The position numbers and the translations under genes were made by a program. The notes beneath the pieces were generated by a model, which saw only the letters and a program-made list of their open reading frames with translations, did not search any database and was not told the origin of the DNA. A stretch of DNA of 63,998 bases, filler included, from Stramenopiles sp. TOSAG23-6 (Eukaryota), in NCBI GenBank assembly GCA_900128565.1. It is 18 parts of 18 records of this genome, joined end to end, with 100 filler letters (N's around TTAATTAATTAA, not from the genome) between each part and the next. Parts side by side here need not be neighbours in the genome. Positions count along the whole stretch, not along the records: positions 35,867 to 39,337 come from LT637481.1; 17 more parts are not named here. The stretch is one strand, 5' to 3'. This document shows positions 10,850-63,998 of the stretch, in pieces. Each line of letters starts with the position of its first letter. Positions within the stretch are counted from its first letter, which is position 1.

Positions 10850-13800
10850 ATTCTTCTTCAAGTATAGCAATCAATTTATTACATAATACTAACACAGACG
10901 TTTTGCAAACAGTCTCAACCTCATCGGCTCTTCAGCAGCAAACTGTTCTATCTATTGCATGGAACAAATATGATGTAACAAATACTACCACTGGAATGTT
11001 TCTACTAGGTACGACGTCTGGGGATATTTTACAAATTGAAATAAAACGAAAAAAAACAAGTGAAAACAAAAATATCAATATTTCGTGTAAAAGACTGTTT
11101 CATCTTGAAGGAATGAATATATCAGGACTTTATATGGAAAAGATGCCTTTTCTGAAATCTAATCTTAAAAGTAAATGTATGTTTTATTTTTTTTTCAAAT
11201 TCGATTTTTTTTCGTACGAAATTTTGTACCTAACGATTTTTTTCTGAAATCTAATCTTAAAAGTAAATGGACGTCAGTTTCCACACAAGAACAAAGTTTA
11301 TCAAATTCGGAAAACAAATCTGAAACAAATGCTTCTTTTTGTCGTACAGATTCTGACCAAATAATGGAAACTACGACTTGGTTTATATTAGCTACAGGCA
11401 GAAACGCAAAACAGAAAATAATTCGTGTCTATGAATTTTTTGGAGGTCCAAATTTTGAGATATTATTTAAATATTACAAAAATAATTTTGATGAATTCAA
11501 GAGGAATGATAATAATGATAATATTGAGGAGGATAATAATGATAATATTGAGGAGGATAATAATGATAATATTGAGCAGGACCTACTAAATAATATAAAT
11601 GTAATGAATGAATACAAGCGAGATGCTACAACTCAGAATATTGGAGATATTTTCTGGGCGGATATTCCAGCAGGTATTCGAATGGAGAAACCAACACTAT
11701 CCATAGCTTCACCAGATGGTGGTGTTTCTGATGGGTTTGGTATTTTAACTGGTAATGGTTGTGTTTTTTGTAACAGTTCATTAGATAAAAAAAGAAAAAC
11801 AAAATCAACAGATGGTTTGATGACGTCATCGACCTCGGTAGTAACGAAGAGTCAATCAATTATAAACGATCCAGGATTTATCAAAATGAATATAGTTGAT
11901 AAAGATTCAATGAAATTTTCTCATGATATAAGTGTATCACAATATCATGTGTATTGTACAGATATTATCGATATAAGTGAAAATAACATGAAATATGAAA
12001 ATAACACGAAATATGAAAATGACACAAGACTACAAAAACAAGATAATTGTATAGTAAGTTTGCGCTTTCGTATAATTAGTATAATAACGAAATCTATCTT
12101 GTACCAGAAAATCTTTCCTCTAGAAAAAAAATGGTCTTGGGATAAGACACGAAATCTTGTCTCAAACAATTTGACAGGATTGTCAAATAAGATGAACAGT
12201 TTTCTCATTCATGATTTCGTATCTAATGAGAAATGGATTATATCTAGTCATAATATTTGGTTAATTTCTATAACTGGAGAAGATAGAAATCTTTGGTCTG
12301 ATTACTTGCAAAATGCAATACAACAATGTAAATCACTCAGTAACGAAAACAACCCGAATAAAATAAATTTTGTTGGTTTCAAAAAATCATTATTTTATTG
12401 TGAAAACGACAAACAACGAAATATTGTGAATATACAGTATGCGAATGCATTGTTTCGTCACAAAAACTATTCCGAAGCTGCAAAAAAGTATTTTATATCA
12501 AAGTGTTCATTTGAAGATGTAATTTTGAAATATTTTTCAATATTACCAATTGCAACAGATTTGGGTACAAACACTGATATTAAATTAGACATGGTTACTT
12601 CCCCAATTGAATCACTACTTGAATATCTACGTCTAATACTTTCAAAGAATATTCACCGAAACATGTATGTTTTTTTTTTTTCAATTTCAAATTTATTTTT
12701 TTTTCGTACGAAATTTCGTACCTAACAAATTTTACAAAAAAAAAAATTTCACAATACATGAGGAGCCAAAAAACAGTTATTTTAACATGGATGTGTCATT
12801 TGCTTATTTATAAAGTGCATATAGCAAAATGTGTCATTGGCTCCATACCTCAAAAACAATTAAAACATCAAAAGTATCGAAAAAGTGAAAAACACAGAAA
12901 ATATCTGACAGACAGAATTACAAAATCACAAAAATGTTTACAGTCCTACGTAAACATTTTGAGGGATTTTTTACTTCAATATAAATGTGATTTAGACTCT
13001 CGAACCACTTTAGCTGCTCTGAGTAATTTTGGGCAGATAAATGAATTAACATATTTTGCACAAGAAACAGGTTTGTGGCAACGTGTTCTTTACATTCATT
13101 CTCAACAGAAACAATTTCTGACTGCATTACGTATCTTACAAAAAATTCCACAACATGAAGCATCAGCTTTACATTACGAATTTTCGTTTGAATTCATGAA
13201 ACACATACCTAAAGAAACGATTCAAGTATGGATTTCTGGTACGTGTGACTTTTTAATCCCTCGTCAGTTAATGCCATCATTAGTTCAATATGAAGTGAAA
13301 ACGAATGATAATAGTAATAATAATGGTACAATTTCTGTACTTAAGTATTTGGAATATGTTACAGGTACAAATGTTTTAAGTGCTCCAATTACGTCACGAC
13401 CATCAAATATATCACAGAGAATGAAAACGAATCATAAACTTAATGATACAATAGAAAAATCAAATGTAAAGAATAAATCTTCAAGTACGAAATCTTGTAC
13501 AAAACATTTAGATGTAGTACAAAACAAACATCGCAAATATTTCAGAAAGATTTCGTGTCGTGATAGTTTTGTATTTAACTACTTTTTCCGTCTTTTAGCT
13601 AAAACTCAATCTGAAACTGAAGTTTTGAGGTTTTTAGCGGAACGAAAAGATGATGATATTGGTGTTATACTTAATCTAAATAGCGCGTTACGGATATGTA
13701 CGTTTACATTATGATTTTCAAATTGTTTTTTTTCGTACACAATTTCGTACCTAAGAAAAACATTCTTGTTTTTTTTATTTTTTCACAATACATGTCAACG

Positions 13801-35995: not shown

Positions 35996-37328
35996 ATTTC
36001 GGAAGGAAGTTCGTTTAGGATCATATAGATCTGTTGCTGCTGGCAGGTTGCCTCCACCAGCTGCAATTGTGGCCAGGCAAATGATTGCTGCTGATCCTGG
36101 GTTTACACCTTTATACAAGGAACGTATTCCATATGTTGTTGTATGTGGGCCACCTGTACCTAACCCTACCCCTAATCATGAAACCCTAACCCTAATTCAT
36201 TTTTTTTTTTCATAGTAAATTTCATACTTAACGAATTGTTTTCATGATTTTTTTTTTGAAATATTTTTCCAAAATACATGGATCCCGATTGTATGACCTT
36301 GTCGTATCACCAACACAAATCTTGAAATTTTCACCACCGATGTATGTTTTATTTTTTTTTAACAAAAAAATCGATTTTTTTTTCATACGAAATTTTGTAC
36401 CTAACAAATTTTTTAGAATTTTTTTTGAAATATTGTTCCAAAATACATACTTCATATTAATATTACATGGTATATAAATAAAATGATGGTGCCTGCACTT
36501 GCGAGATTATTTAACCTTGTAGGTGTTGATGTATCTGCCTGGTTGATGGATCCCCTAATTAAATTAAATGGATCAAAAAATCGTCAAAATGCTTTAGCTG
36601 AACTAAACGTTTTTCGTGTAGATAGGATCATTCAAGGAAATAGAAATAATACAAATGAAAGACACGAAAAACGTAAAAATAATTTACGTTGTATCGATAA
36701 ATATGTTAAACGACTTCAGTGTGGGGCTTGTGGAGGTGACGCTGCTAGAGGCAATTATTGTGACGATTGTCTTTCAGATCCTCAAAAATTACATTTTGTG
36801 TACGTTTTCATTATTTTTTTACCTAATTTTTTTTCGTACGAAATTTCGTACCTAACAAAAAACAAAAACAAAAAAAATATTTTTTCACAATACATAATTC
36901 AAAGTAATCTCTCTTCATCGGATAAAACTAGAAATTTGTACGTTGTCCCTTTTAAAATTACATTTGGTAAAAACATTGGTATATTTGATATCACTCTTTA
37001 TCAAATACCAAATTTTACATTATCTATTTTAATTTTTTTTTTTTTCATTTTAAAAATATACATTTTTAACATACCTAACAAATTTCAAATTTTGAAAAAT
37101 ATTTTTTTGCATTGTCTACTTCAGACGTTATGTCGTCTATGTATCTCAAAGGAAGACCCACAAAAAAGATTGGGGAGTATCGGAGGAGGTGAACTTTTAC
37201 AAAAATCTGCGATTTCGTGTTGTAATTTAGATTGTCCAGTTTTATATCGCAGAGCTTCAACACTTGTTCTTTGGAGGCACGCAAGACTTCTCCACAACCA
37301 ACTGAATGATGTATACAATACAAACTAG
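35996..37328 (+). CDS. REV3: DNA polymerase zeta catalytic subunit, C-terminal exons
   Basis: FRKEVRLGSY, ERIPYVVVCGPPGSRL, PALARLFNLVGVDV and CysA/CysB clusters (CCNLDCPVLY); GT-AT introns 36156..36279, 36342..36448, 36800..36895 and a fourth from 36938. Confidence 0.9.
36156..36279 (+). other. Representative non-canonical GT-AT spliceosomal-type intron
   Basis: cct|GTACCT...ccaaaatacAT|gga restores the conserved REV3 GxPGxRL motif. Confidence 0.85.
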
Positions 37329-37695
37329 AATCAAATATTATGAAGTATATATAAAGCATGAACAAAATTTTATAATATTGTTTTTTCCGGTTTTACCCAA
37401 ATGCCATTAATTAGGGATCTATGAAAAAATAGTTTTGTTTTTTAACTAATTAAAACGAAATTTAGAAGCTAAAACTTTTATTTTTGTAATTTTTAGTAGT
37501 CAATCGCAATCAATCGAAATCTACCTCCTCCATTATATGCTCCGAAATGGTAAATGATTGAAAATTCCGGATTGATTGTGTAATTGACTAAGCAATTTCA
37601 AGAGTTTGCTTTTATCATTGTAAACGTTCCAATTGTTTATTCAATATGACGTCAGGTGGTCTTTTGCAACAAGATCGCGGACGAAGCTCTGCATC

Positions 37696-39051
37696 TCATT
37701 TTTTCGCACCTGCTTTGATAAGTTGTGCAACTACTTTTCCATGACCCTCCCATGAAGCAATCATCAATGGTGTAGCTCCGTTTTTATTAGCATGATTTAC
37801 ATTAATATTCTCCGCTTTGAGAAGTTCCTCAACTACTCCCGCATGACCCATTTCTGAAGCAACATACAATGGGGTATCTCCGTATCTATTAGCATGATTG
37901 ACATTAGCACCAAGATCGATGAGTTTTTCAACTACTCCCGCACGACCCTTCTCTGAAGCAATATACAATGGGGTTTCCCCGTATTTATCAGTCTGCTCGA
38001 CATCAGCACCATTATCAAAAAGTAGTTTAACGACTTCTTCATTACCATTCTGTGAAGCAATAAACAATGGGGTTCTTCCGAATTCATCAGCCTGATTGAC
38101 ATTAGCACCTTTACCAAGAAGTAGTCCAACTACTCCAACATGACCATTCATTGAAACAAGATGTAATGCAGTATATCCGTGGTTATCAACCAGATTGACA
38201 TCAGCACCAGCAGTGATTAGTTGTGCAACAACTTCCGCATTTCTTTGACGCACAGCATGTAATAATTTGGCATTATTTTCTTCTTTTGCTCGTGCTTCGC
38301 TTTCTGCTTTCTGTTTTCGCATTGCTTTTGCTTCTTCTGCTGCTTTTTGTAGTTCATTTTGAAAAGCTAATGCTTCTTCTTGAGTCATCTGCGGCGCCGA
38401 TGGCTGAGGCGATCCACCACCACCACTGAATGCACAACCCATATCCCAATGTGTTGTTTTTGTATTATTGTCGATATAATATTTACGCCCTAACCGATCT
38501 CTTGCTTCCTCCCAACCATATGGTAGCGGGGAAATATTCGCCTCAGCACCACCACCTCCACAACCAGCAGCATCCTTCGGCGGCGCCGATGGCTCAACGG
38601 TCATATCAGCAGCAGCAGCAGCATCCTTCGGTGGCGCCGATGGCTCAACACGGCCTGCAGCTGCTCCATGCCCACGCAACGAACTGGAAACTTCTTCAGC
38701 AAGAACAATCGGGAGTGGGTCGTTCTGTGGAGATTCTATCATGTGAGCACCATTATCCATGTAAAAAAAATCACCGCGGCACTTAGGGTTTCCTCTATCT
38801 GATTTTTTTTCATTAAAACAGTATACAGGACTCCCGTTCGAATGCGTTCTTGCATCACCAGTATTAGGATCCACTACAGGTACACTACACCATGCACATC
38901 TTTTAGAGAAAACACCGCCTGAAAAAAGTCCCATTGTAGGAGCGTTCACGCAATCGTCCTTTGTCAAATACGACTTACAATCTGCACCCATACAAACTCC
39001 CGTCGTAAAACCAATCGCAATCAAAATCTGAAAGCATTTTCTTGTATTCAT
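37696..39051 (-). CDS. Signal peptide, Cys-rich domain, PSAP motifs, WW domain and ankyrin repeats
   Basis: LPYGWEE..GRKYYIDNNTKTTHW (WW); five to six GxTPL ankyrin repeats; EPSAPP twice and QPSAPQ. Confidence 0.85.
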   Translation of the reverse strand: MNTRKCFQILIAIGFTTGVCMGADCKSYLTKDDCVNAPTMGLFSGGVFSKRCAWCSVPVVDPNTGDARTHSNGSPVYCFNEKKSDRGNPKCRGDFFYMDNGAHMIESPQNDPLPIVLAEEVSSSLRGHGAAAGRVEPSAPPKDAAAAADMTVEPSAPPKDAAGCGGGGAEANISPLPYGWEEARDRLGRKYYIDNNTKTTHWDMGCAFSGGGGSPQPSAPQMTQEEALAFQNELQKAAEEAKAMRKQKAESEARAKEENNAKLLHAVRQRNAEVVAQLITAGADVNLVDNHGYTALHLVSMNGHVGVVGLLLGKGANVNQADEFGRTPLFIASQNGNEEVVKLLFDNGADVEQTDKYGETPLYIASEKGRAGVVEKLIDLGANVNHANRYGDTPLYVASEMGHAGVVEELLKAENINVNHANKNGATPLMIASWEGHGKVVAQLIKAGAKK

Positions 39052-39437
39052 TTCCTTAATTTTGTTGTTTGTTCTTTTGATGTCTTTTTATGATTAATAT
39101 TTAATGAGTTCATCGCAAGTGAGTTCCTCGCGCTGTTCATTTGCTGTTCATTTTTGTGCTGTTCATTACATGATGTAACCATTACCGGGTAACAGTTTCA
39201 CTATAGTTGATTAAATTTGGAAGCTTCAGACTCAGAGTCTTCTTCTTGTGTAATAAATAATACGTACTAGCCTACTAGACTCTAGAGTCATATGTCCTCC
39301 GTCCTGAGAGACTATCTCTTGCAGTGTAATACGTTATNNNNNNNNNNNNNNNNNNNNNNNNNNNNNNNNNNNNNNNNNNNNTTAATTAATTAANNNNNNN
39401 NNNNNNNNNNNNNNNNNNNNNNNNNNNNNNNNNNNNN

Positions 39438-40007
39438 GTAAGTAATGAATCATAAAAGTAACGGTCCACATTTGGCGAAATTGACGCAGACTAAAGAAGG
39501 AATAAACACAAAAAGAAATGATACATCTGTAAAGCGAACCTGTACACACATAGCTCATATGAAAAAAGAATGCAACGCATTCCCTTTCAATTTGTCAGTC
39601 AAGGTAAACTAAACTCCGAGAGAACTATAGATGTAAGTAATGAATCATAAAAGTAACGGTCCACATTTGGCGAAATTGACGCAGACTAAAGAAGGAATAA
39701 ACACAAAAAGAAATGATACATCTGTAAAGCGAACCTGTACACACATAGCTCATATGAAAAAAGAATGCAACGCATTCCCTTTCAATTTGTCAGTCAAGGT
39801 AAACTAAACTCCGAGAGAACTATAGATGTAAGTAATGAATCATAAAAGTAACGGTCCACATTTGGCGAAATTGACGCAGACTAAAGAAGGAATAAACACA
39901 AAAAGAAATGATACATCTGTAAAGCGAACCTGTACACACATAGCTCATATGAAAAAAGAATGCAACGCATTCCCTTTCAATTTGTCAGTCAAGGTAAACT
40001 AAACTCC
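39438..40007 (+). repeat. 195-bp tandem repeat, about 3 copies
   Basis: gtaagtaatgaatcataaaag at 39438, 39633 and 39828; diverged partial copy near 41245-41345. Confidence 0.92.
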
Positions 40008-42593
40008 AACTCACTGTGAAATTTGGTGTGAAATTAGACCTTGGGAAGAAACACTGCTTCTTGAGAAATGCAAAGGAAATACAATTACAACCTTGGATAA
40101 CCAAACAACAAGACTAATTTTATATCACACATTTTCAAAACATTTACGTTTGTACTTTCTTTCAAGAGTCAATAATACAATACACATTTAAAAAAAAAGA
40201 ACGTTAGGTACAAAGTTTTGGTGTACAAAAATACGAAATATGCGATTTAAAAAAAAAATCAAATTTTAGTGACAAATTAAAATTCGTTTCTAATTTAAGG
40301 TTGCGCTTGGATTTCATTTCATGAGTTAGTCATGAAGTCGTTGTCACTAATACATTGAGAAACTAGCAAGGATAATATGGGTAAGCACGTAATTAGGGTT
40401 AGGGTTAACCATGATCCTCGTTTCAAATCTACACTACTCGTTTTGGGCTTAGGTACAGAATTTGGTACAAAAAAAAATGGAATGGAATTTCGCAGGTATA
40501 GTGTAAGTGAAGGGTATAGGAAGATTGTGTGTAACCATGGGATCATTTTCTTGCCAGTTACTTTGAACAAATATTGAGTATTAATGAAATTACACTTGTC
40601 TATGTGATTTAATATATCAGTACAGAAAATGCAAATTAACTACAAATTAGGATTAGTAGGCAATGTTGGAACGATTTGAAACGTGAGGAACATGGCTTAT
40701 CTAGGGTTAGGGTTTAAGTACAAATACCAATTTTTTGGTATTTCGATTTTTTTTCGGTCATGTCATGTCGGTGTGTGTGTGTGATGTTGACAACATTAGA
40801 CCTGGAATTTTCAACTAGTTACTACAATAAGTCACTACAATGTAGCTAGACCTTGATTTTATATGGTTGGTAGATTGAAACTTTTGATTTTACAATGAAA
40901 CTAGACCTTGGATTTACACGGATTTACAGTGAAACCAGACCTTGGATTTCAATGAGTCACTACAATGAAACTAGACCTACGTTTCATATGACCGGTAGAG
41001 TGAAACTAAACTTTTGATTTCAATTTGTTTTTAAAAGAAGCCAGACATTGGAACACTAATTAGAGAAATATTTGCTCAAGAGAACCAATGAGATAAAAGC
41101 AAAAAATGAAACGAACAAAAAATTATATAAAAAGATGACCATATTTTTTGGGCTAAAAGTAATGTTCAACATTGGGTTAACTTACACAGAGCAAGGAAAG
41201 AATATAGACCACAAGAACTGACCAATCTTTGAAAAAAAAAAAAATACACAGCTCATATAAACAAAAGATATAGCTTATTCTTTTTAATTTTTCAGTCAAG
41301 ATGAACTAGACTCCAACTCATGGGCACAGTAAAATTAGATCTTGCAACACAAACTCGTGAAAGATATCTTTCCACGGAAACAACAAGAAAAGGAAAAGAA
41401 AAACAATTGATATATTACAATATCCTATCAAAAATTATCAATGTGCCTTTTTTGTGTGCCCAGGTTGAGGATATCATTTTGTAGAGTAATTGATCGATTC
41501 ACTGTTTCAAAATCTATTTAGAAAAAGACTCACAAAATGATAAAACCAGTATACTATTGAGACAACAAGTCGGTGTACAACAAAGCAATTATGTGTTTCA
41601 ATGATGATTTCACTGTAATGTAAAAGACAGTACTGTTGTCTAAAATTCGTACAATAACACTTACATGGCCAGTACCACTCTCAAGACAAGTAAAACACAT
41701 AATCCAAAAAAATCGAGTTTTTCAAACTTTTAACTACGGTGTAGGTAGCTGTAGGTGAGCTCCAAGGTTCATTCTTTTTGTAAAAGTTACGTACACAGTG
41801 TATATATATATTGTCACTATTTTAATCATGTGTCTATTTAGACTAGAATGCATTGTAAAAGAGGGGAAACTTGGATAAAATGACGGATAAAATATATGAA
41901 TCTCAGCCCTAACCCTTTCTTAGGTATGAAAAAATGTTACGAATTATTTTTTGTAGTAACTTTTGTACATAACAATTTTACTCGTCCGAGGAGTATTTAC
42001 TACGGATTACTACGGATTCATCGAAAAAAATTAAATTTTGAAAATCCTCTTTTATGCATTGTAACATTGTGCGGCTATATTTCAGGTCCACAATTGAATG
42101 TGTCTAGTGATACCATGAGCCAACTGTATTATCTATATTAGGTAATTGAAGCACTATATCCATGGTAAAATTTGATTTTGGTACGGTTAGGTATAAAAAA
42201 TGAAAAAAAAAAAAAAAAAAAACACGAAAAAAAGTGAGGACCTAGAGCTAGTGGTTTACTTGCATTGATGATTAATCAAATCATTCAAAAAAGATTCAAT
42301 AAGAGACGTGTATACATATATCATATATGTAGCTTTTTGTTTTAAAATCAATTATTTGTTGATAAACAATTTTAATTTGTAGGAATTCAAAAAAGATATA
42401 CAAAATGTTCAACAATTCTGAAAACTATGAATGCTCATTTTATTTCTTAATTTGTATTATTATAACCAATATGTAACTTTATACTTACAAATGAAACATT
42501 TTATTTATACTTTTTTACAAATTACAGGAATTTGAGTGCTAATTGTGTTATAGCACATACCATTTAACAACAAGAATACCAAGTACACGTGAA

Positions 42594-42848: not shown

Positions 42849-43080
42849 ATCATCATCCTCTGCTACAATTTGAGAAGCAGTTACCGTCACTTGAAACACC
42901 AANNNNNNNNNNNNNNNNNNNNNNNNNNNNNNNNNNNNNNNNNNNNTTAATTAATTAANNNNNNNNNNNNNNNNNNNNNNNNNNNNNNNNNNNNNNNNNN
43001 NNTGTTTTATTTTTTTTTCAAAAATTTTTTTTTCGAAATAATTTTTAATTTTTTTTTTGGTTTGATTTTGCAACATGTAC

Positions 43081-43782
43081 ATACGCCCCCACAGCTTCAG
43101 ATGTCAAAGCATCATTCACTCGTCCAATTCCGTAGTCAGATACACCAATTCCACCATCATGTATTTTGGAAAAATATTTCAAAAAAAAAAACTAAAAATC
43201 GTTAGGTACAAAATTTCGTATGAAACATAAATTCGAAATTGAAAAAAAAATACAACATACATATTGTTGTCCGAGCATCGATAATTTATTCTGTTGAAAA
43301 TCCCTCATCGTGAATGTCTTTCTCATATTTGTGGTTGATGCACCATGACCTACTTGATATGTTGGTGTTGATCGTTCATTTTGTTCTTTCACAACTTTCA
43401 TAGTTTTATCAAGTTCTTGGAGTTTTTCTTCAAGGGTATCATATAAAATCAGATTCTCCTCAATCCCAACAACTTTTTCTGTGTAGTTGCTCAAAGACGC
43501 AGAAAGCCTCGCAGCTACTAAGGCAAAATAATTACATACTGCAACTTCATTATCCCAAGTATTTATTTGCTCTGAGAATCTACGAATAGGAGGCAGCGCA
43601 GACTCCACAATATATTTTTGAAGTGATTTCGAGTTAGGCAGTACAAGCTTTAACTCCTTCACAAAGTCCCGTCTTTGCTGGGGTTGAAATCCTTTCTGAA
43701 GATAACACATGAATAACTTTTCCAGTGGACTTTTTTCTGTGTGGGTTGAAGCATTATCATTTGTGGGTTTTGGGGACATCAT
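43081..43782 (-). CDS. Unknown protein, exons 1-2 (3' partial)
   Basis: Frame continues GQQY|DGGIGV across GT-AT intron 43159..43260. Confidence 0.6.
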
Positions 43783-44101
43783 ACGTTGCAATTTTAAATT
43801 GAATTATTGAAATTGAAATGTTTGGATTCGAATTCGATTCGATTGAGATTAGATTCGAGAATTTTTCCAGATTACGATTAGGCTAGGGTTAGGGTTTAAA
43901 AATAAATTTTAATGACATTTTCGCGAAGTTTGTTTTCGGAACTTTTTCACTTTTCGCACGCAAAAAGTGGTGATCTCAAGAATGGTTATTTGAAATTGTT
44001 TTCAAGATGCACTAGTTCAACGTTTTAGAGCATTTATGATTTTGTAGACAATATAAGTTTGTCAAGGTAGTTGCGTTTTTTTTTTAATTTCTGTGTGATA
44101 G

Positions 44102-45677
44102 ATGAGTTCCAGCACCATTTCTCTCCTCAACAACACTGAAGTCCAACTCCATAAAAAAAGCTTCATTCAGAGGTACAGCTCATTTGTTTTTACTTGTATT
44201 GGATGCATTCTATCTGGAAGTATAGTTTTTTCAACTTTGCACTTTTGTCGATATAGTGTTTCTTCGTATGCAATTTGTGCATATATGTACTGTACCGTTG
44301 CCTTGCTAGCATTTTTGAAGTGCTTTCGTCAGTATTGTGTCGCAGAAGTATTTGCTATACCTAACTTTCGCGCAGCTAGATATCTAACGTGGATACCATT
44401 TTACCTTAGTTTTTCCTCTGCTGCTAGAACACTTCAATTTACACTTGACGTTTGGGAGTATAAGTCACACTCGAATCCGTGTGATACCTCTTTGAAGCCG
44501 TTAGAATTTATAGTAGAAGATGTTTCTGATTCAACTCATACAAGTGTTAGATCAATGGCTCAGCGAGTAGCTACTTTACTATTTTACAGCGGGGTGAGTT
44601 GTGTAGTTTTATATTGGGCTGATGTTGATGTGCATGCACGTACGTTATCAGTAGGCTCTGGGTATTCTAGCGGGTTTGAACAGAATTTTCGTATTAATGG
44701 AAATACTACTACTCATCGAAAAATACCAAATTCTTGGGCAACGCAGCTACTCTTACTGCTAAATCTCTGGCTATATGTGTGTACTATTTTGTTTTTCTTC
44801 CTTGGAAAGTATCATTGGCATGTAAGTACAATTTACAGCATCGGTATTGATATGACAATTTTCATTTATATTTGTTTGTTAGTGACCACGGTTTTTTATG
44901 CCTTAAAAATGTACGTTTCAAAAAAAAAAGAAAAAAAAATTCGTACAAAAATTTGTACCTAACAAAAAAAAATTACAAAAACAAAATATTATTTTCCAAT
45001 ACATGAGACGAATTTTAAAAACTTTAGAGGCGAACATTCAACATCCTATAATTACTTCATTTCGATGTAAAACAAATGTAACTGTGATTATTTTGACGGT
45101 CTCATTTTTTATAAAGTGTTTTTTATGTACGTTTTTTTTTCGTACGAAATTTTGTACCTAAGATGTTTTTTTGAGCATTGTTTTTTCATTTCAAATTTAT
45201 TTTGTATGTAGAAAATTTCGTACCTAACAAAAAGATCAAACTTCAAACATATTCCCCCAAAATACATGGTGTTATAGACCACTTGGGCAGTTCCTGTTTG
45301 GTCCAAGTGGAGGTTGCATTCGTGGTATATTTTATAATATAGCATACCCCTGGTGTTTTTATCTTTTTCCTGAAATCATACCAACATTGTGGTTGATATA
45401 TATATTAGGTATCAATCCCGTCGGTAGGGTTAGGGTTCCAGAAAATGTTGAAAGGAATATAATAGAATCCAAAAATATAAATAACCCTAATACTCTTACT
45501 ATATGGGAATCAAAACATAATGGTAACGAGAATGAGAGGAATGAAGATTTTACGTGTAGGAATAAACATATTGCTGAATTAAATAGTTTTGGATTACACG
45601 GAGATTCTCTTGTAGAGTTAGGGTTAGGGTTACCGGGACCTTTTGCATTTACTGAACTACCCGAAAATAGTCGCTAA
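44102..45677 (+). CDS. TOM1/THH1/GPR137-like multi-pass membrane protein
   Basis: About seven hydrophobic segments, LLFYSGVSCVVLYWA and FYLFPEIIPTLWLIYIL; single frame after removing GT-AT introns 44911..45004 and 45127..45267. Confidence 0.7.
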
Positions 45678-45765
45678 GATATAATATTGAATCTAACTAT
45701 AGTTAAAAAAAAATGTATTCCTGTATATAGTAAAAACATTTTATTCCTGAGTAAAAAAATCTTAA

Positions 45766-46414
45766 TTAATTTTGTTTCCATATCTTTGTATGCTCAGGTC
45801 TGTCATAATATTCATCTTGTAAAGCTGACGTCATTCTATCAGCATTTTCGGTAGTCAATTCAGAAAACATTTCAAATGCGAGATCTTGAAAAGAACTTGC
45901 AATCCATTGAAACCAATAATTTGTTTCAAAACCTCCTCCAATTTCCATAATAGTCCATTCTTCTGGATTTTCTGGATGTTTTCCATATTTCTCAGTGATA
46001 ATCATGTTTTGTGGGAAAATATATATATTTTTGTTAGTAAAGAACATTAGTTAGCTATGAAATGTCTACCAAAAAGAAAAAAACAATTCATAATGTAATC
46101 GTACATTAGCCCCATCGTTGAAAAAGTTTCATTTTTGCTAATCATACTTAATTTTTTTTCTGCTTTATCTTCCAAAGATTCTTCGTTGAAGATAATACTT
46201 TCTGCAGATAATACTTTTTTAGCGACTTCAGGAATTGTGTTTTTATTCTCAAAATGTCGGATTCGTTTGATGCATTTCCACTCAGCTGACTCTATTTTGG
46301 ATTTCAACTTGACGCTAATTGTGTCAGGTGGGCGAAATTTTGCGATTTTATTGAAAACAACATATGCTACTTTGCCCCACGGTTGCTTCAATGTTTTTTT
46401 AAATGGTTTGAATA
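45766..46414 (-). CDS. Unknown protein, last two exons
   Basis: GLM|IITEKY joined in frame by GT-AT intron 46004..46104. Confidence 0.6.
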
Positions 46415-46567
46415 ATGTATTTTGGAAAAATATTTCAAAAAAAAATCGTTAGGTACAAAATTTCGTANNNNNNNNNNNNNNNNNNNNNNNNNNNNNNNNN
46501 NNNNNNNNNNNTTAATTAATTAANNNNNNNNNNNNNNNNNNNNNNNNNNNNNNNNNNNNNNNNNNNN

Positions 46568-49500
46568 TGTTTTATTTTTTTTTCAAAAATTTTTTTTTCG
46601 AAATAATTTTTAATTTTTTTTTTGGTTTGATTTTGCAACATGTACATACGCCCCCACAGCTTCAGATGTCAAAGCATCATTCACTCGTCCAATTCCGTAG
46701 TCAGATACACCAATTCCACCATCATGTATTTTGGAAAAATATTTCAAAAAAAAAAACTAAAAATCGTTAGGTACAAAATTTCGTATGAAACATAAATTCG
46801 AAATTGAAAAAAAAATACAACATACATATTGTTGTCCGAGCATCGATAATTTATTCTGTTGAAAATCCCTCATCGTGAATGTCTTTCTCATATTTGTGGT
46901 TGATGCACCATGACCTACTTGATATGTTGGTGTTGATCGTTCATTTTGTTCTTTCACAACTTTCATAGTTTTATCAAGTTCTTGGAGTTTTTCTTCAAGG
47001 GTATCATATAAAATCAGATTCTCCTCAATCCCAACAACTTTTTCTGTGTAGTTGCTCAAAGACGCAGAAAGCCTCGCAGCTACTAAGGCAAAATAATTAC
47101 ATACTGCAACTTCATTATCCCAAGTATTTATTTGCTCTGAGAATCTACGAATAGGAGGCAGCGCAGACTCCACAATATATTTTTGAAGTGATTTCGAGTT
47201 AGGCAGTACAAGCTTTAACTCCTTCACAAAGTCCCGTCTTTGCTGGGGTTGAAATCCTTTCTGAAGATAACACATGAATAACTTTTCCAGTGGACTTTTT
47301 TCTGTGTGGGTTGAAGCATTATCATTTGTGGGTTTTGGGGACATCATACGTTGCAATTTTAAATTGAATTATTGAAATTGAAATGTTTGGATTCGAATTC
47401 GATTCGATTGAGATTAGATTCGAGAATTTTTCCAGATTACGATTAGGCTAGGGTTAGGGTTTAAAAATAAATTTTAATGACATTTTCGCGAAGTTTGTTT
47501 TCGGAACTTTTTCACTTTTCGCACGCAAAAAGTGGTGATCTCAAGAATGGTTATTTGAAATTGTTTTCAAGATGCACTAGTTCAACGTTTTAGAGCATTT
47601 ATGATTTTGTAGACAATATAAGTTTGTCAAGGTAGTTGCGTTTTTTTTTTAATTTCTGTGTGATAGATGAGTTCCAGCACCATTTCTCTCCTCAACAACA
47701 CTGAAGTCCAACTCCATAAAAAAAGCTTCATTCAGAGGTACAGCTCATTTGTTTTTACTTGTATTGGATGCATTCTATCTGGAAGTATAGTTTTTTCAAC
47801 TTTGCACTTTTGTCGATATAGTGTTTCTTCGTATGCAATTTGTGCATATATGTACTGTACCGTTGCCTTGCTAGCATTTTTGAAGTGCTTTCGTCAGTAT
47901 TGTGTCGCAGAAGTATTTGCTATACCTAACTTTCGCGCAGCTAGATATCTAACGTGGATACCATTTTACCTTAGTTTTTCCTCTGCTGCTAGAACACTTC
48001 AATTTACACTTGACGTTTGGGAGTATAAGTCACACTCGAATCCGTGTGATACCTCTTTGAAGCCGTTAGAATTTATAGTAGAAGATGTTTCTGATTCAAC
48101 TCATACAAGTGTTAGATCAATGGCTCAGCGAGTAGCTACTTTACTATTTTACAGCGGGGTGAGTTGTGTAGTTTTATATTGGGCTGATGTTGATGTGCAT
48201 GCACGTACGTTATCAGTAGGCTCTGGGTATTCTAGCGGGTTTGAACAGAATTTTCGTATTAATGGAAATACTACTACTCATCGAAAAATACCAAATTCTT
48301 GGGCAACGCAGCTACTCTTACTGCTAAATCTCTGGCTATATGTGTGTACTATTTTGTTTTTCTTCCTTGGAAAGTATCATTGGCATGTAAGTACAATTTA
48401 CAGCATCGGTATTGATATGACAATTTTCATTTATATTTGTTTGTTAGTGACCACGGTTTTTTATGCCTTAAAAATGTACGTTTCAAAAAAAAAAGAAAAA
48501 AAAATTCGTACAAAAATTTGTACCTAACAAAAAAAAATTACAAAAACAAAATATTATTTTCCAATACATGAGACGAATTTTAAAAACTTTAGAGGCGAAC
48601 ATTCAACATCCTATAATTACTTCATTTCGATGTAAAACAAATGTAACTGTGATTATTTTGACGGTCTCATTTTTTATAAAGTGTTTTTTATGTACGTTTT
48701 TTTTTCGTACGAAATTTTGTACCTAAGATGTTTTTTTGAGCATTGTTTTTTCATTTCAAATTTATTTTGTATGTAGAAAATTTCGTACCTAACAAAAAGA
48801 TCAAACTTCAAACATATTCCCCCAAAATACATGGTGTTATAGACCACTTGGGCAGTTCCTGTTTGGTCCAAGTGGAGGTTGCATTCGTGGTATATTTTAT
48901 AATATAGCATACCCCTGGTGTTTTTATCTTTTTCCTGAAATCATACCAACATTGTGGTTGATATATATATTAGGTATCAATCCCGTCGGTAGGGTTAGGG
49001 TTCCAGAAAATGTTGAAAGGAATATAATAGAATCCAAAAATATAAATAACCCTAATACTCTTACTATATGGGAATCAAAACATAATGGTAACGAGAATGA
49101 GAGGAATGAAGATTTTACGTGTAGGAATAAACATATTGCTGAATTAAATAGTTTTGGATTACACGGAGATTCTCTTGTAGAGTTAGGGTTAGGGTTACCG
49201 GGACCTTTTGCATTTACTGAACTACCCGAAAATAGTCGCTAAGATATAATATTGAATCTAACTATAGTTAAAAAAAAATGTATTCCTGTATATAGTAAAA
49301 ACATTTTATTCCTGAGTAAAAAAATCTTAATTAATTTTGTTTCCATATCTTTGTATGCTCAGGTCTGTCATAATATTCATCTTGTAAAGCTGACGTCATT
49401 CTATCAGCATTTTCGGTAGTCAATTCAGAAAACATTTCAAATGCGAGATCTTGAAAAGAACTTGCAATCCATTGAAACCAATAATTTGTTTCAAAACCTC

Positions 49501-50032
49501 CTCCAATTTCCATAATAGTCCATTCTTCTGGATTTTCTGGATGTTTTCCATATTTCTCAGTGATAATCATGTTTTGTGGGAAAATATATATATTTTTGTT
49601 AGTAAAGAACATTAGTTAGCTATGAAATGTCTACCAAAAAGAAAAAAACAATTCATAATGTAATCGTACATTAGCCCCATCGTTGAAAAAGTTTCATTTT
49701 TGCTAATCATACTTAATTTTTTTTCTGCTTTATCTTCCAAAGATTCTTCGTTGAAGATAATACTTTCTGCAGATAATACTTTTTTAGCGACTTCAGGAAT
49801 TGTGTTTTTATTCTCAAAATGTCGGATTCGTTTGATGCATTTCCACTCAGCTGACTCTATTTTGGATTTCAACTTGACGCTAATTGTGTCAGGTGGGCGA
49901 AATTTTGCGATTTTATTGAAAACAACATATGCTACTTTGCCCCACGGTTGCTTCAATGTTTTTTTAAATGGTTTGAATAATGTATTTTGGAAAAATATTT
50001 CAAAAAAAAATCGTTAGGTACAAAATTTCGTA
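46568..50032. repeat. Redundant copy of contig 43003..46467
   Basis: Same sequence and ORFs at offset +3565. Confidence 0.97.
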
Positions 50033-53780: not shown

Positions 53781-54658
53781 ATATTCTTTCCAAAGTTTCC
53801 AAGCTTCAAATACCATGTTATTCATCAACCTATTTAAAATGTTTGTAATTACTACCAAACCACGTTTAGCAACAAAATCCCGAGATCTCACTCGAAACAT
53901 CCAAGTATTGTGAAAAAATATGTTTTCAGTTTGATATTTGTTAGGTACGAAAATTTTAAAATTTTTTAGTAAAAAATAAATTTGAAATTGGATCACGTAC
54001 AATCAAATGGTAGCGTTTTTGCCACTTCATTCATTAGTTTGTGACTTTTTTTATGTATTTTTCTGGCACCTATTGTTAGATCTCGTTCATAGTCTCTGTA
54101 AAATTCAGTTTCCATTTGCATTTCTATAGGCAAGGCTAATAAACTATATTCTGGATGTACTGATTGCAACCTACCTTTCCGGGGGCGGCTAGACTGACGA
54201 TTTTGAGCATATTTTTTTTTCGTACGACTTTTAGTATAATGTTGTTGTCGAATAGGAGATAATCTATGCATTCGCATTGCCTTAGTACTACGGATTTCTT
54301 GGCCAGGGGTATCAAGCTGTAATGTTGAAAATGTAGGTAAAGAATTATTTCTTTTATCTAACGTCTTACGTGCAGTATATTTTTCCATATTTTGTAATTC
54401 TTGTGGTTTTTCTATAGTAACTCGTCGTATTTGAGGGGACATTCGAGGCGATAAAGAAGTACCATCAATCTCTGGAAATCCTGAATGATATTGACGGAAT
54501 TGAGGTGAGTCCAGTAGAATACTCCGTGCATCATCGGCATCTGTGGAAATCATATCTCGGAGCTCTTTCAATTCCGACAGTTGTACTGTATCATCAACAG
54601 GTCTATTTCGTTTACCTGTTTTCCTTGATCCAGTACTTGACAAGTTACGCACGTACAT
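53781..54658 (-). CDS. Unknown protein, exons 1-2 (3' partial)
   Basis: LPFD|WMFRV in frame across intron 53903..54000 (GT...TT). Confidence 0.6.
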
Positions 54659-62800: not shown

Positions 62801-63998
62801 ATCTGTAACCGTTTTCTAAGGATTTTCTAAGGATGTATAGAGTTAGAATAAAAAATGTTTGAACAGAGAAATCAAATAATTGTTGAAAAAGTAAATAAAA
62901 ATCAATTATATACCAATAAATACTACTACATACATGGATTTCACAAAGTTGAAAATATTACTGTACTGCTCCACATTCACTAATTCATTGTCACTCAAGT
63001 TTCTGTATAAAAAAATTCAAAATTGGTCAATATTTATTTGTTAGGTATGAAATTTCGTACCAAAAAAAAAAAAAAAAAAAAAAAAAACGAATACAATAAG
63101 GGTACAAAAATGTATTTGTTAGGTATGAAATTTCGTACCAAAAAAAAAAAAATTACAAAACATGATTAGGGTTAGGGTTCTCCACGTACAAATCGTCCAA
63201 AAAATACGACATGTCCCAATTATACACAGCCTTGTTTGAGGGCAGGTTTGTTAGATCTATAAACGTTGGATTTTTGATTGAATGTATTTTGGAAAAATAT
63301 TTAAAAAAAAAAATTTTGAAAATTTTGTTAGGTACAAAATTTTCAAAAAAAAATTTAGACAAAAAATTGAAAAAATATACAATGTACTTGTGGCCTAAGT
63401 AATGTTTGATCAAATGAAACCGTTAATTTGTAAATCTTATTATTTTGCAAATTTCTATACAGTTACAAAATATGTCAAAAAAATATTTTAATAAGTATTC
63501 AATTTTTTTTTTCGTAAAAAAATTTCATACCAAACAAAAAAAAAATCAAAAAAAAGATTCAAAATTTTTTGATACTATTTTTAAATTATACAATCAATGT
63601 AATTATTATTGGAAATAACCTACACTTTTTTTAGGGAAAACATTTCAAATAAAATAAAATTAATCTTTATCTCGGTTAGTCTATTATTAGATGCGTCCCT
63701 TTTGAGTTTGAGTAAGATTTTTTTTTTTTTTGAAAATTGTTTTTTNTTAGGTATGAAATTTCGTATGAAAAAAAAAAAAAAANATGCTGAAAATATACAC
63801 AAAAAGAAAGATGATGAAAATAAATATTTGCAATTACATAATATATAATTCAGTAAATATTTCAACATACAATGTTTCCAAAATTGTTAGGCTGCCAATC
63901 TCTGAAGGTAAGTTTTCTAATTGGTTGTTGTTGACATATCTACACTGTAACAAAATATATACAAAATCAATATTATACAATGAGAAAACTGCAAGAAT

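What the first reader, a model, noticed from the sequence alone, without database searches (positions are those of the whole stretch)
36156..36448. REV3 micro-exon fixes the register as GT-AT and excludes an AG acceptor
Seen: exon 36280..36341 (GSRLYDLVVSPTQILKFSPP) and the stretch from the branch site to it contain no AG; the only AG in the intron (catag at about 36215) lies upstream of the branch motif and is followed by an in-frame TAA. The exon before the donor ends CT, so the 2-nt ambiguity is resolvable: GT-AT gives CGPPGSRL, matching the REV3 GxPGxxL motif, while the shifted ..AC register gives CGPHGSRL. Likewise the AG 4 nt inside transporter intron 29264..29372 would frameshift.
Basis: partly seen in the sequence, partly recalled or inferred. 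Interest (0 to 1): 0.85.

Follow-up and report, generated by a model that had tools for sequence, protein, structure and literature searches.

The report
GT-AT introns flanking REV3 micro-exon
A 62-base coding piece of the DNA-repair polymerase gene REV3 in an uncultured marine protist lies between two copies of a very abundant repeated intron that has to be cut out at GT...AT instead of the near-universal GT...AG, although no RNA data yet confirm this.

Summary
Exon A (to 36155), the micro-exon (36280-36341) and exon C (from 36449) are consecutive pieces of the C-terminal part of REV3. Joined as GT...AT removals, they are colinear with yeast Rev3 and with 16 informative orthologues. At the first junction 10 of 16 orthologues have proline, as GT-AT predicts, and none has the histidine of the CT-AC register. 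No AG acceptor can work: every AG option or exon skipping gives stop codons.

Both introns belong to a roughly 90-180 nt repeat family found all over the window (GTACCTAAC: 50 hits against 0.19 expected). Of 27 complete copies, 25 start GT, 24 end AT and 3 end AG at the same position. Fourteen of the 24 AT-ending copies hold no AG at all.

The window is a set of about 3.5-kb contigs from a stramenopile. One source name suggests MAST-3.

Limits: no RNA covered the locus, and a 1-nt shifted register (TG-CA) gives the same mRNA. The closest known systems are transposon-derived non-canonical introns such as those of Fritillaria, and introners. I rate it a new variant of a known kind.

The parts
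35867..35995 (+). 3' part of an upstream intron, cut off by the start of the contig. It is low-complexity A/T and ends ...TATACAT.
   Evidence: sequence; contig 11 = 35867-39337. The end was placed by reading; the orthologue alignment starts at F/RKEVRLG.
35996..36155 (+). REV3 exon A (...FRKEVRLGSYR...ERIPYVVVCGPP). It ends CCA CCT.
   Evidence: PDB search: yeast Pol zeta catalytic subunit 7lxd_A residues 1272-1317, E 9.3e-5; orthologue alignment.
36156..36279 (+). Intron 1, 124 nt, GTACCTAAC...AAAATACAT (GT-AT). It has one AG (36214) followed by an in-frame TAA, a branch-like TACTTAAC at 36225, and telomere-like CCCTAA units near its 5' end.
36280..36341 (+). REV3 micro-exon, 62 nt, GSRLYDLVVSPTQILKFSPP plus AT (first two bases of an Ile codon). 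It holds no AG.
   Evidence: aligns with orthologues; spacing fits yeast Rev3.
36342..36448 (+). Intron 2, 107 nt, GTATGTTTT...TTCCAAAATACAT (GT-AT; the AT-AC register gives the same mRNA). It holds CATACGAAATTTTGTACCTAAC at 36384-36405 and an unused AG at 36415.
   Evidence: Its last 30 nt together with exon C lie in an independent metagenome contig (X3 record 2, 36419-36769).
36449..36799 (+). REV3 exon C (I-LHINITWYINKMMVPALARLFNLVGVDVSAW...QCGACGGDAARGNYCDDCLSDPQKLHF), which includes the first cysteine cluster.
   Evidence: Yeast Rev3 1341-1375, E 4e-4; 27 relatives at E<=1e-3. Of 5 differences in a metagenome contig, 4 are synonymous.
36800..36895 (+). Intron 3, 96 nt, GTACGTTTT...CACAATACAT (GT-AT). 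The upstream exon ends GT. The intron is in frame and has no stop.
36896..36941 (+). REV3 exon D (IQSNLSSSDKTRNLY). The 3' limit is provisional.
   Evidence: spacing to the second cysteine cluster fits orthologues (23 against about 24 residues).
36942..37124 (+). Intron 4, provisional, 183 nt, GTTGTCCC...CTACTTCAG (GT-AG). Ending at 37112 (GCAT) is also possible. Its 3' block ATTGTCTAC resembles the AG-ending copies in the INO1 gene.
   Evidence: Not resolved.
37125..37328 (+). REV3 last exon (TLCRLCISKEDPQ...CCNLDCPVLYRRAS...) with the second cysteine cluster and the stop codon.
   Evidence: Pfam zf-C4pol PF14260, E 1.3e-3, 19.3 bits, below the 28.9-bit cut-off; orthologues end ...DCP[VI][FL][FY].R.

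Best explanation
The stretch holds a genuine 62-nt internal exon of the gene for the catalytic subunit of DNA polymerase zeta (REV3). It is flanked by two members of a high-copy, transposon-like intron family ('introner'-like). The organism is an uncultured marine stramenopile; one source name suggests MAST-3. The mature mRNA joins ...GGGCCACCT to GGATCCCGA... and ...CACCACCGAT to ACTTCAT..., so the removed pieces run from GT to AT.

Inferred mechanism: removal by the major (U2-type) spliceosome. The signals would be a yeast-like donor (GTAYGT, usually preceded by exonic AT), a branch-like TAC(C/T)TAAC 33-47 nt upstream of the 3' end, a T-rich tract, and a conserved 3' block (ATATTTTTYCAMAATACAT) that fixes the cut after ...ACAT. 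The last intron base may be T (most copies) or G (a minority subfamily). AG dinucleotides that lie between the branch-like motif and the 3' end are passed over.

Shown: the exon structure, the absence of a usable AG, the family, and the uniform ends. Inferred: that removal happens at the RNA level, which spliceosome does it, and how the AT end is recognised.
For: Exon structure:
- Exon A and exon C hit yeast Rev3 at 1272-1317 and 1341-1375. The 20-aa micro-exon fills the 18-residue gap.
- The GT-AT product aligns without gaps to 16 informative orthologues. The junction residue is P in 10 of 16 and H in 0 (19 of the 27 hits were aligned; 8 without upstream sequence were left out, and 3 of the 19 were uninformative).
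- Every alternative (the AG at 36214, the AG at 36415, skipping) gives stops.

Family:
- GTACCTAAC occurs 50 times against 0.19 expected, and AAAATACAT 19 times against 3.3 expected; 0 of 100 shuffles reach either count.
- Of 27 complete copies, 25 start GT and 2 start GA; 24 end AT and 3 end AG at the same aligned position.
- With these ends, 26 of 27 link at least 19 open codons on both sides, against 9 and 13 of 27 when the acceptor is moved by 1 or 2 nt. Shift 0 is best in 23 of 27.
- 14 of the 24 AT-ending copies contain no AG at all. In 3 of the 5 that have an AG after the branch-like motif, using it would shift the frame.
- The INO1 gene in the same window has two AG-ending copies whose removal is confirmed by intron-free homologues. 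The family is therefore cut at this position.

Independent DNA:
- A 2024 seawater metagenome contig covers 36419-36769, including ...AAAATACAT|ACTTCAT. It has 5 differences, 4 of them synonymous.
- The intron repeat has a summed depth of 94,323 in that run, against about 7-8.5 for the unique flanks. This is a sum over all contigs, not a copy number.
Against: - No RNA evidence. The two metatranscriptome runs do not cover the REV3 exons. No database protein covers exon C. The junction probe and the protein scan of metagenome contigs found nothing.
- TG...CA removal gives the same mRNA at intron 1.
- In 2 of 27 copies (29017-29107 and 32501-32602) the long flanking ORFs are 1 nt out of phase with GT...AT. 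I attribute this to assembly chimeras through the repeat, but did not show it.
- Two copies (14516, 58504) fit only if the upstream exon is a very short first exon or 5' UTR.
- At least two or three copies that I could not complete end AC or TT at the aligned last position (32305; 53947 and perhaps 53573 on the minus strand).
- The proline at the junction is not universal: 6 of 16 orthologues have other residues.
- Contigs are only about 3.5 kb from a fragmented assembly, and no snRNA or splicing-factor gene could be examined.
Confidence: 0.7

Rival explanations
1. The same exons are joined, but the chemistry uses another register of the same length: CT...AC at intron 1 (AT...AC at most other copies), or TG...CA.
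For: The exon ends AT before the donor in 21 of 27 copies, so AT-AC would fit 15 of 27. TG-CA fits 18 of 27 and gives an identical mRNA at REV3 intron 1. AT-AC is an established intron class (passages of 10.1101/2020.10.12.336362).
Against: GT at +1/+2 holds in 25 of 27 copies and A(T/G) at the end in 27 of 27, which is more uniform than any shifted pair. CT-AC at intron 1 predicts H, where 0 of 16 orthologues have H and 10 have P. Copies whose upstream exon ends GT, CT, AC or AA (6 of 27) cannot be AT-AC.
Confidence: 0.08
2. The introns are removed by the minor (U12-type) spliceosome, which is known to tolerate non-AG ends, including GT-AT.
For: [quoted passage not shown] The branch-like TACCTAAC loosely resembles the U12 branch consensus TTCCTTRAC quoted there.
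Against: The donor is GTAYGTTT, not RTATCCTT. The branch-like motif ends 33-47 nt from the 3' end in 25 of 27 copies. The Physarum paper reports 10-12 nt for Physarum; I recall a short distance as typical of U12-type introns. No U11, U12, U4atac or U6atac gene could be looked for. Rfam found only one tRNA in the window, and no genome is held.
Confidence: 0.1
3. The gene model is wrong: an AG acceptor is used, the micro-exon is skipped, or the locus is a pseudogene.
For: AG acceptors are the rule in almost all eukaryotes. A few copies of the same family do end in AG.
Against: All AG options and exon skipping give stop codons. The micro-exon aligns with conserved REV3 residues. All exons are open. 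A natural variant shows 4 synonymous changes out of 5.
Confidence: 0.03
4. Assembly artefact: the roughly 100-nt repeat caused collapsed or chimeric joins, so the printed intron ends or the exon order do not reflect the real locus.
For: Many contigs break inside this repeat. Two joins look chimeric: an SDR-like ORF joined to a transporter at 29017-29107, and an unrelated ORF joined to a carrier at 32501-32602.
Against: The three REV3 exons follow each other in the order and spacing of REV3. The junction ...ACAT|exon C is in an independent metagenome contig. The last bases of an intron sit next to unique exon sequence and are therefore tied to it.
Confidence: 0.05
5. The elements are removed by a route other than the spliceosome, as proposed for euglenid nonconventional introns, or at the DNA level.
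For: The copies are repeated and transposon-like. The two ends can pair over a few bases (GTAT(G)TTTT with AAAATAC), and minimum-energy folds pair the ends in 3 of 4 cases.
Against: The folds are no better than shuffles (z -0.63, -1.54, -1.59, +0.10). The borders are uniform and have a donor, a branch-like motif and a T tract, unlike the variable borders of hemistasiid and euglenid introns (section 5 of PMC12621601). The elements are present in DNA of independent samples.
Confidence: 0.04

Closest known systems
Non-canonical introns of the tunicate Fritillaria borealis (passages of PMC11282704 and PMC13326754)
   Same: A majority intron class that breaks the GT/AG rule, is thought to come from transposon insertions, is removed by a U2-type spliceosome, and has many introns ending in 3' AT or 3' AC.
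   Different: In Fritillaria the commonest pairs are AG-AC and AG-AT, so the 5' end is non-GT, and the ends are diverse. Here the donor is a conventional GTAYGT and the pair is almost uniformly GT-AT. The lineage is a stramenopile, and nothing is known about its U2AF or snRNAs.
Introners: transposon-derived intron families of Micromonas, Aureococcus, dinoflagellates and others (passages of PMC9860276 and PMC11282704)
   Same: Many near-identical short introns in unrelated genes. They are AT-rich, with short terminal complementarity and a repeated dinucleotide at the two borders (AT before the donor in 21 of 27 copies; AT as the last two intron bases in 24 of 27).
   Different: Introners described in the passages I read use GY-AG ends (rare GC or GA donors are mentioned). 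A family whose 3' end is AT is not mentioned there. The evidence for a target-site duplication here is weak: only position -3 matches more often than shuffles, 12 of 27 against 7.8 expected, P 0.03.
Expanded U12-type introns of Physarum polycephalum (10.1101/2020.10.12.336362, passages)
   Same: Mass spread of one intron type, probably by a DNA transposon with a dinucleotide target site. [quoted passage not shown]
   Different: Physarum introns carry U12 donors (RTATCTT) and a branch motif 10-12 nt from the 3' end, and GT-AT is a small minority. Here the donor is U2-like and the branch-like motif lies 33-47 nt upstream.
Nonconventional introns of euglenids and hemistasiid diplonemids (PMC12621601 abstract, passages and section 5)
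   Same: Non-GT-AG introns are dominant in a protist lineage, and a MITE origin has been suggested.
   Different: Those introns have highly variable, G+C-rich ends and extensive end-to-end pairing. Here the ends are uniform and A+T-rich, and no significant fold was found.
REV3 / DNA polymerase zeta catalytic subunit (yeast structures 7lxd, 6v8p)
   Same: The C-terminal part of the polymerase domain and two cysteine clusters are colinear with yeast Rev3.
   Different: Only the last ~250 residues of the spliced product lie on this contig. The rest of the gene is not in the window.

Membership tests
REV3 (Pol zeta catalytic subunit) | Sequence homology to the C-terminal part of the B-family polymerase domain of Rev3 | tested here: met
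   Best PDB hits of exon A and exon C are yeast Pol zeta catalytic subunit (E 9.3e-5 and 4.1e-4). Pol delta scores far weaker (E 0.36).
REV3 (Pol zeta catalytic subunit) | C-terminal domain with two cysteine clusters (zf-C4pol) | tested here: inconclusive
   CGAC...CDDC and CRLC...CCNLDC were read in the translation. Pfam PF14260 scores 22.3 bits, below the 28.9-bit cut-off. The orthologue pattern is shared.
REV3 (Pol zeta catalytic subunit) | Full polymerase and exonuclease-like domains upstream | not testable with these tools
   The contig starts at 35867 inside an intron, and no genome is held.
Canonical U2-type GT-AG intron | GT at the 5' end with a U1/U6-compatible donor | tested here: met
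   GTACCT (intron 1) and GTATGT (intron 2). GT in 25 of 27 family copies. That GTATGT is a yeast-type donor is recalled.
Canonical U2-type GT-AG intron | AG at the 3' end | tested here: not met
   Both introns end AT. No AG gives an open frame. 24 of 27 copies end AT.
Canonical U2-type GT-AG intron | Branch site and pyrimidine tract upstream of the 3' end | tested here: inconclusive
   A TAC(C/T)TAAC motif lies 33-47 nt from the end in 25 of 27 copies, followed by T runs. Its use as the branch point was not shown.
U12-type (minor) intron | Donor RTATCCTT | tested here: not met
   The donors are GTACCTAA and GTATGTTT.
U12-type (minor) intron | Branch motif TTCCTTRAC close to the 3' end | tested here: not met
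   TACTTAAC or TACCTAAC ends 47 and 43 nt from the 3' ends of introns 1 and 2.
Introner / MITE-derived intron family | Many similar copies as introns of unrelated genes | tested here: met
   50 GTACCTAAC hits. 27 complete copies lie in REV3, INO1, carrier, transporter and other ORFs. 81% identity over 97 nt between a carrier intron and REV3 intron 2.
Introner / MITE-derived intron family | Terminal inverted repeats and target-site duplication | tested here: inconclusive
   There is short complementarity, GTAT(G)TTTT with AAAATAC. AT precedes the donor in 21 of 27 copies and AT ends the intron in 24 of 27, but that match is no better than shuffles. Position -3 matches in 12 of 27 against 7.8 expected (P 0.03).
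Introner / MITE-derived intron family | Copies also outside genes, or evidence of recent mobility (presence/absence between strains) | not tested
   Some motif hits lie in non-coding stretches or in antisense inside another intron (34594-34602). No presence/absence comparison was possible.
Euglenid/hemistasiid nonconventional introns | Variable borders and strong pairing of the two intron ends | tested here: not met
   The borders are uniform. Fold z-scores run from -1.59 to +0.10.

The most novel reading that the evidence does not exclude
In a lineage of abundant uncultured marine stramenopile flagellates (apparently MAST-3), the main intron class is a mobile-element family that the major spliceosome removes as GT...AT. 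The last intron base can be U or G, and the 3' cut is set by a conserved upstream block rather than by an AG. This would be an independent, near-uniform re-writing of the 3' splice-site rule outside animals. It would also mean that published gene sets for these organisms miss or mangle most intron-containing genes.
Probability: 0.55. Interest if true: 0.8.

Novelty: new variant of a known kind. Interest (0 to 1): 0.62.

Why it matters
If transcripts confirm it, this lineage would offer a natural system in which U replaces G at the last intron position in most introns while the donor stays conventional. That bears directly on how the 3' splice site is recognised (U2AF and the first-last nucleotide contact of the second step), and on how transposon-derived introns reshape splicing rules.

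There is also a practical consequence. Gene finders that allow only GT-AG will fail on these genomes. No database protein covers the REV3 exon C. The one public model found for this window (INO1, P0028) uses only the two AG-ending introns, deletes conserved residues and reads through into an intron. Functional inventories of these abundant marine grazers may therefore be biased.

Tried and rejected
RNA test:
- The look-up of sequencing runs gave two seawater metatranscriptome runs with small shares.
- When laid, they cover the intron repeat (summed depth about 18,000) and parts of the neighbouring ankyrin gene, but not the REV3 exons. No junction could be read, and nothing follows about expression.
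It was repeated on the single contig, as the message advised.

Database transcripts and gene models:
- Exon C found no protein of 63-203 aa or 204-2000 aa.
- A protein-guided scan of metagenome contigs found no relative.
- A 24-nt junction probe allowing both registers found nothing.
- None of these is evidence for or against splicing.

Taxon and genome:
- No whole genome is held, so snRNAs and splicing factors could not be examined. Rfam found one tRNA in the window.
- Diplonemid origin was considered because single-cell genomes of marine diplonemids are reported to be rich in non-canonical introns. I rejected it. The INO1 exon is identical to a model whose source name begins GSMAST32, and the next named relatives are oomycetes at 59-62% identity. 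Hemistasiid non-canonical introns are also G+C-rich with variable ends.
- Physarum-type U12 introns were considered and rejected on the donor and the branch distance.

Other attempts:
- Secondary structure of four introns was no better than shuffles.
- My first automatic frame tests were too noisy and were replaced by the curated list.
- Earlier notes of this scan held nothing on this genome or this repeat.
- The Atlas search only confirmed that INO1 is INO1.
- The Gawryluk et al. 2016 paper is not held.
- Supplements are closed. Those of PMC5778133 (gene-prediction tables) could hold splice-site statistics that I could not see.
Full report
WHAT THE WINDOW IS. The 63,998 bases are not one locus. 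They are 18 contigs of about 3.5 kb, sorted by length and joined by N44-TTAATTAATTAA-N44 spacers. The finding lies in contig 11 (35867-39337). G+C is about 24-45% in 2-kb windows, about 32% around the finding. This explains why REV3 starts abruptly: the contig begins inside an intron.

THE OBSERVATION. Reading and a script confirm every stated fact.
- Intron 1 (36156-36279, 124 nt) runs GTACCTAACC...CAAAATACAT. Its only AG (36214) lies upstream of the branch-like TACTTAAC (36225) and is followed by an in-frame TAA.
- The micro-exon (36280-36341, 62 nt) has no AG.
- The next AG (36415) is inside intron 2 (36342-36448, 107 nt, GTATGT...AATACAT). Using it, or skipping the micro-exon, gives stop codons.
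- The AG-free gap of 201 nt is the second longest of 2,790 such gaps in the window. The other long gaps also sit on introns of the same kind, so this reflects intron composition.
- The transporter intron 29264-29372 has its single AG 4 nt from the end, and using it shifts the frame.
- One qualification: exon A ends in T and intron 1 ends in T, so a 1-nt shifted cut (TG...CA) yields the same mRNA. Only the 2-nt shift is resolved here.

THE GENE.
- Exon A (35996-36155) hits the yeast Pol zeta catalytic subunit at residues 1272-1317 (E 9.3e-5). Exon C (36449-36799) hits residues 1341-1375 (E 4.1e-4).
- By extrapolation, 18 yeast residues lie between the two exons. The micro-exon supplies 20.
- A search of 1.84 billion representative proteins with exon C gave 27 relatives at E<=1e-3. 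I aligned the 19 that have sequence upstream of the match. The other 8 start at the match. Of the 19, 3 were uninformative (P0002, P0003, P0005).
- The GT-AT product aligns without gaps: ERIPYVVVCGP-PGSRLYDLVVSPTQIL... against, for example, ERVRYVVVHGP-PGSRLTDMVVPPQML.
- The residue encoded across junction 1 is P in 10 of 16 orthologues, other residues (A, A, R, S, K, I) in 6, and H in none. This favours CCT (GT-AT) over CAT (CT-AC).
- Downstream, intron 3 (36800-36895) is again GT-AT. Intron 4 is provisional (36942-37124, GT-AG; an end at 37112 is not excluded). The last exon carries the second cysteine cluster. Pfam zf-C4pol scores below its cut-off.
- A contig from an independent 2024 seawater metagenome covers 36419-36769 with five differences, four synonymous and one Ala to Ser. 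The intron 2/exon C border and the reading frame therefore exist in nature.

THE INTRONS ARE ONE REPEAT FAMILY.
- GTACCTAAC occurs 50 times (0.19 expected) and AAAATACAT 19 times (3.3 expected).
- Flanks of all 71 TA[CT][CT]TAAC sites and alignments give this consensus: exon-AT | GTAYGTTTT...(T-rich)...CGTACGAAATTTTGTACCTAAC...(A/T-rich)...ATATTTTTYCAMAATACAT | exon.
- Many contigs end inside this repeat.
- I compiled 27 copies with both ends inside a contig. Duplicates on contigs 2 and 14 were dropped, as were at least 12 copies cut by contig ends and about 15 sites whose ends I could not place. Several of those also end ...ACAT by eye. At the aligned last position 53947(-) ends TT, 53573(-) ends TT (or AT after a 1-nt slip) and 32305 ends AC.
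- Results for the 27 (with the end of 32782-32899 corrected): 5' GT 25, GA 2; 3' AT 24, AG 3; the exon ends AT before the donor in 21.
- With these ends, 26 of 27 join at least 19 open codons on both sides, against 9 and 13 of 27 when the acceptor is moved by +1 or +2. Shift 0 is best in 23 of 27.
- Shifted registers are less uniform: AT-AC in 15 of 27, TG-CA in 18 of 27.
- 14 of the 24 AT-ending copies hold no AG at all. Five have an AG after the branch-like motif: three would shift the frame and two would add 11 junk codons.
- The branch-like motif ends 33-47 nt from the 3' end in 25 of 27 copies.

EXCEPTIONS.
- At 29017-29107 and 32501-32602 the long flanking ORFs are 1 nt out of phase. In both cases the two sides look like different genes: an SDR-like ORF against an amino-acid transporter, and an unrelated ORF against a mitochondrial carrier. 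I suspect chimeric joins through the repeat; this is an inference.
- 14516 and 58504 fit only if the upstream exon is a 5' UTR or a four-codon first exon.

AG-ENDING COPIES. The INO1 gene on contig 10 has two family introns that end TTATAG and ATACAG at the same aligned position. Removing them gives ...EGSSYINGSPQ... and ...SAGIKPVSIV..., identical to intron-free homologues. So the family is cut at that position, and the last base can be G or T. The AG copies share a TTGTCT(A/C) block, as does REV3 intron 4.

WHOSE GENOME.
- The INO1 exon's best hit (P0028) is identical to the window wherever it aligns, including a read-through tail. The 85% identity printed comes from two internal deletions in that model.
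- Its source name begins GSMAST32. The next named relatives are oomycetes at 59-62%.
- The window therefore comes from, or is the same as, a public assembly of a stramenopile, apparently MAST-3.
- Holders of the DNA are seawater metagenomes.
- In one of them the repeat has a summed depth of 94,323 against about 7-8.5 for unique flanks. This is a sum over all contigs and organisms. It shows abundance, not copy number.

MECHANISM.
- Shown: the exon structure, the uniform GT...A(T/G) ends, and the lack of a usable AG.
- Inferred: removal by the major spliceosome.
- Grounds: a GTAYGT donor; a motif one base longer than the yeast branch consensus (recalled), at a normal distance from the 3' end; and T tracts.
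- U12-type removal is unlikely on the donor and the branch distance (consensus).
- Folding gives no significant structure, unlike euglenid or hemistasiid introns.
- The first CAT after the branch-like motif is not the one used in intron 1 (TTTTCATGA at about 36243). The conserved 3' block, not a scan for a trinucleotide, probably sets the cut.
- How AT is recognised is open. A divergent U2AF, as in Fritillaria, is one candidate.
- The AT before the donor and the AT at the end may be a target-site duplication of a mobile element, or simply consensus. The test was inconclusive.

WHAT IS KNOWN.
- Transposon-derived intron families (introners) are known in many protists, including stramenopiles (passages).
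- Genomes dominated by non-GT-AG introns are known in Fritillaria (AG-AC, AG-AT; 3' AT and AC ends), euglenids and hemistasiid diplonemids.
- GT-AT is known as a rare U12-type variant.
- I found no paper linking this lineage with introners or non-canonical splicing. Searches gave none. The main text of PMC5778133 has 'intron' twice (in methods) and 'splice' and 'non-canonical' not at all. PMC12614181 and PMC8163842 have no 'intron'.
- Supplements were closed and Gawryluk et al. 2016 is not held, so this is not proof of absence.

VERDICT. The reading (a real micro-exon, no AG acceptor, GT-AT register) is supported by sequence and homology but untested at the RNA level. It is best filed as a new variant of transposon-derived non-canonical introns.

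Noticed in passing
whole window; spacers at 3499-3598, 7097-7196 and so on, about every 3.57 kb: The window is a concatenation of 18 contigs of about 3.5 kb, joined by N44-TTAATTAATTAA-N44. Contigs 1/2 (1-3498, 3599-7096) and 13/14 (43003-46467, 46568-50032) carry the same ORFs and look like duplicates.
   Followed up: partly
11177-11268 (+): The last ~26 nt of this family intron repeat the last ~26 nt of the upstream exon, and the usual 3' block is missing. Its borders are therefore ambiguous over 26 nt. It may be a long duplication made at insertion or repair.
   Followed up: no
about 22960-23013 (minus strand): A family intron end ...CACAAGACAT is followed at once by GTACATTTTCATC, another family donor. 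These are either two introns back to back or an exon of zero length.
   Followed up: no
29017-29107 and 32501-32602 (+): The long ORFs on the two sides are 1 nt out of phase and look like different genes (SDR-like against amino-acid transporter; unrelated ORF against mitochondrial carrier). Probably contigs joined wrongly through the intron repeat.
   Followed up: partly
33671-35177 (+), INO1 gene: The public model P0028 (source name beginning GSMAST32) is this locus. It removes the two AG-ending introns correctly, but it also deletes two conserved stretches inside exon 1 and reads through into the next intron (...[18 protein letters not shown]).
   Followed up: yes
13949 (+) and 61613 (-): Two family introns start GAATGTTT instead of GT (GA-AT), and their frames still fit.
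   Followed up: partly
36160-36200 (+); near 63125 (-) and 33407 (-): Telomere-like CCCTAA units (AACCCTAACCCTAATCATG) lie inside intron 1 of REV3 and at two other places. This may be a sub-element of the repeat.
   Followed up: no
34594-34602 (-) inside INO1 intron 34573-34727: This intron holds an antisense partial copy of the family core next to a sense copy, an inverted arrangement inside one intron.
   Followed up: no
32305, 53947 (-), 53573 (-): At the aligned last intron position these copies read AC, TT and TT (the last could be AT after a 1-nt slip). Their other ends are cut off or could not be placed, so I could not tell whether further end types exist.
   Followed up: no
37696-39087 (-): A 463-codon ORF with ankyrin repeats (five ~99-nt tandem units at 37721-38218) and a WW-like segment. 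Low-depth RNA contigs of the metatranscriptome runs lie at 37361-37519 and 37855-38128, at and just beyond this gene's 3' end.
   Followed up: no
39440-40020: A tandem repeat of about 195 nt in at least three copies, seen as identical ORFs repeated at 195-nt steps.
   Followed up: no
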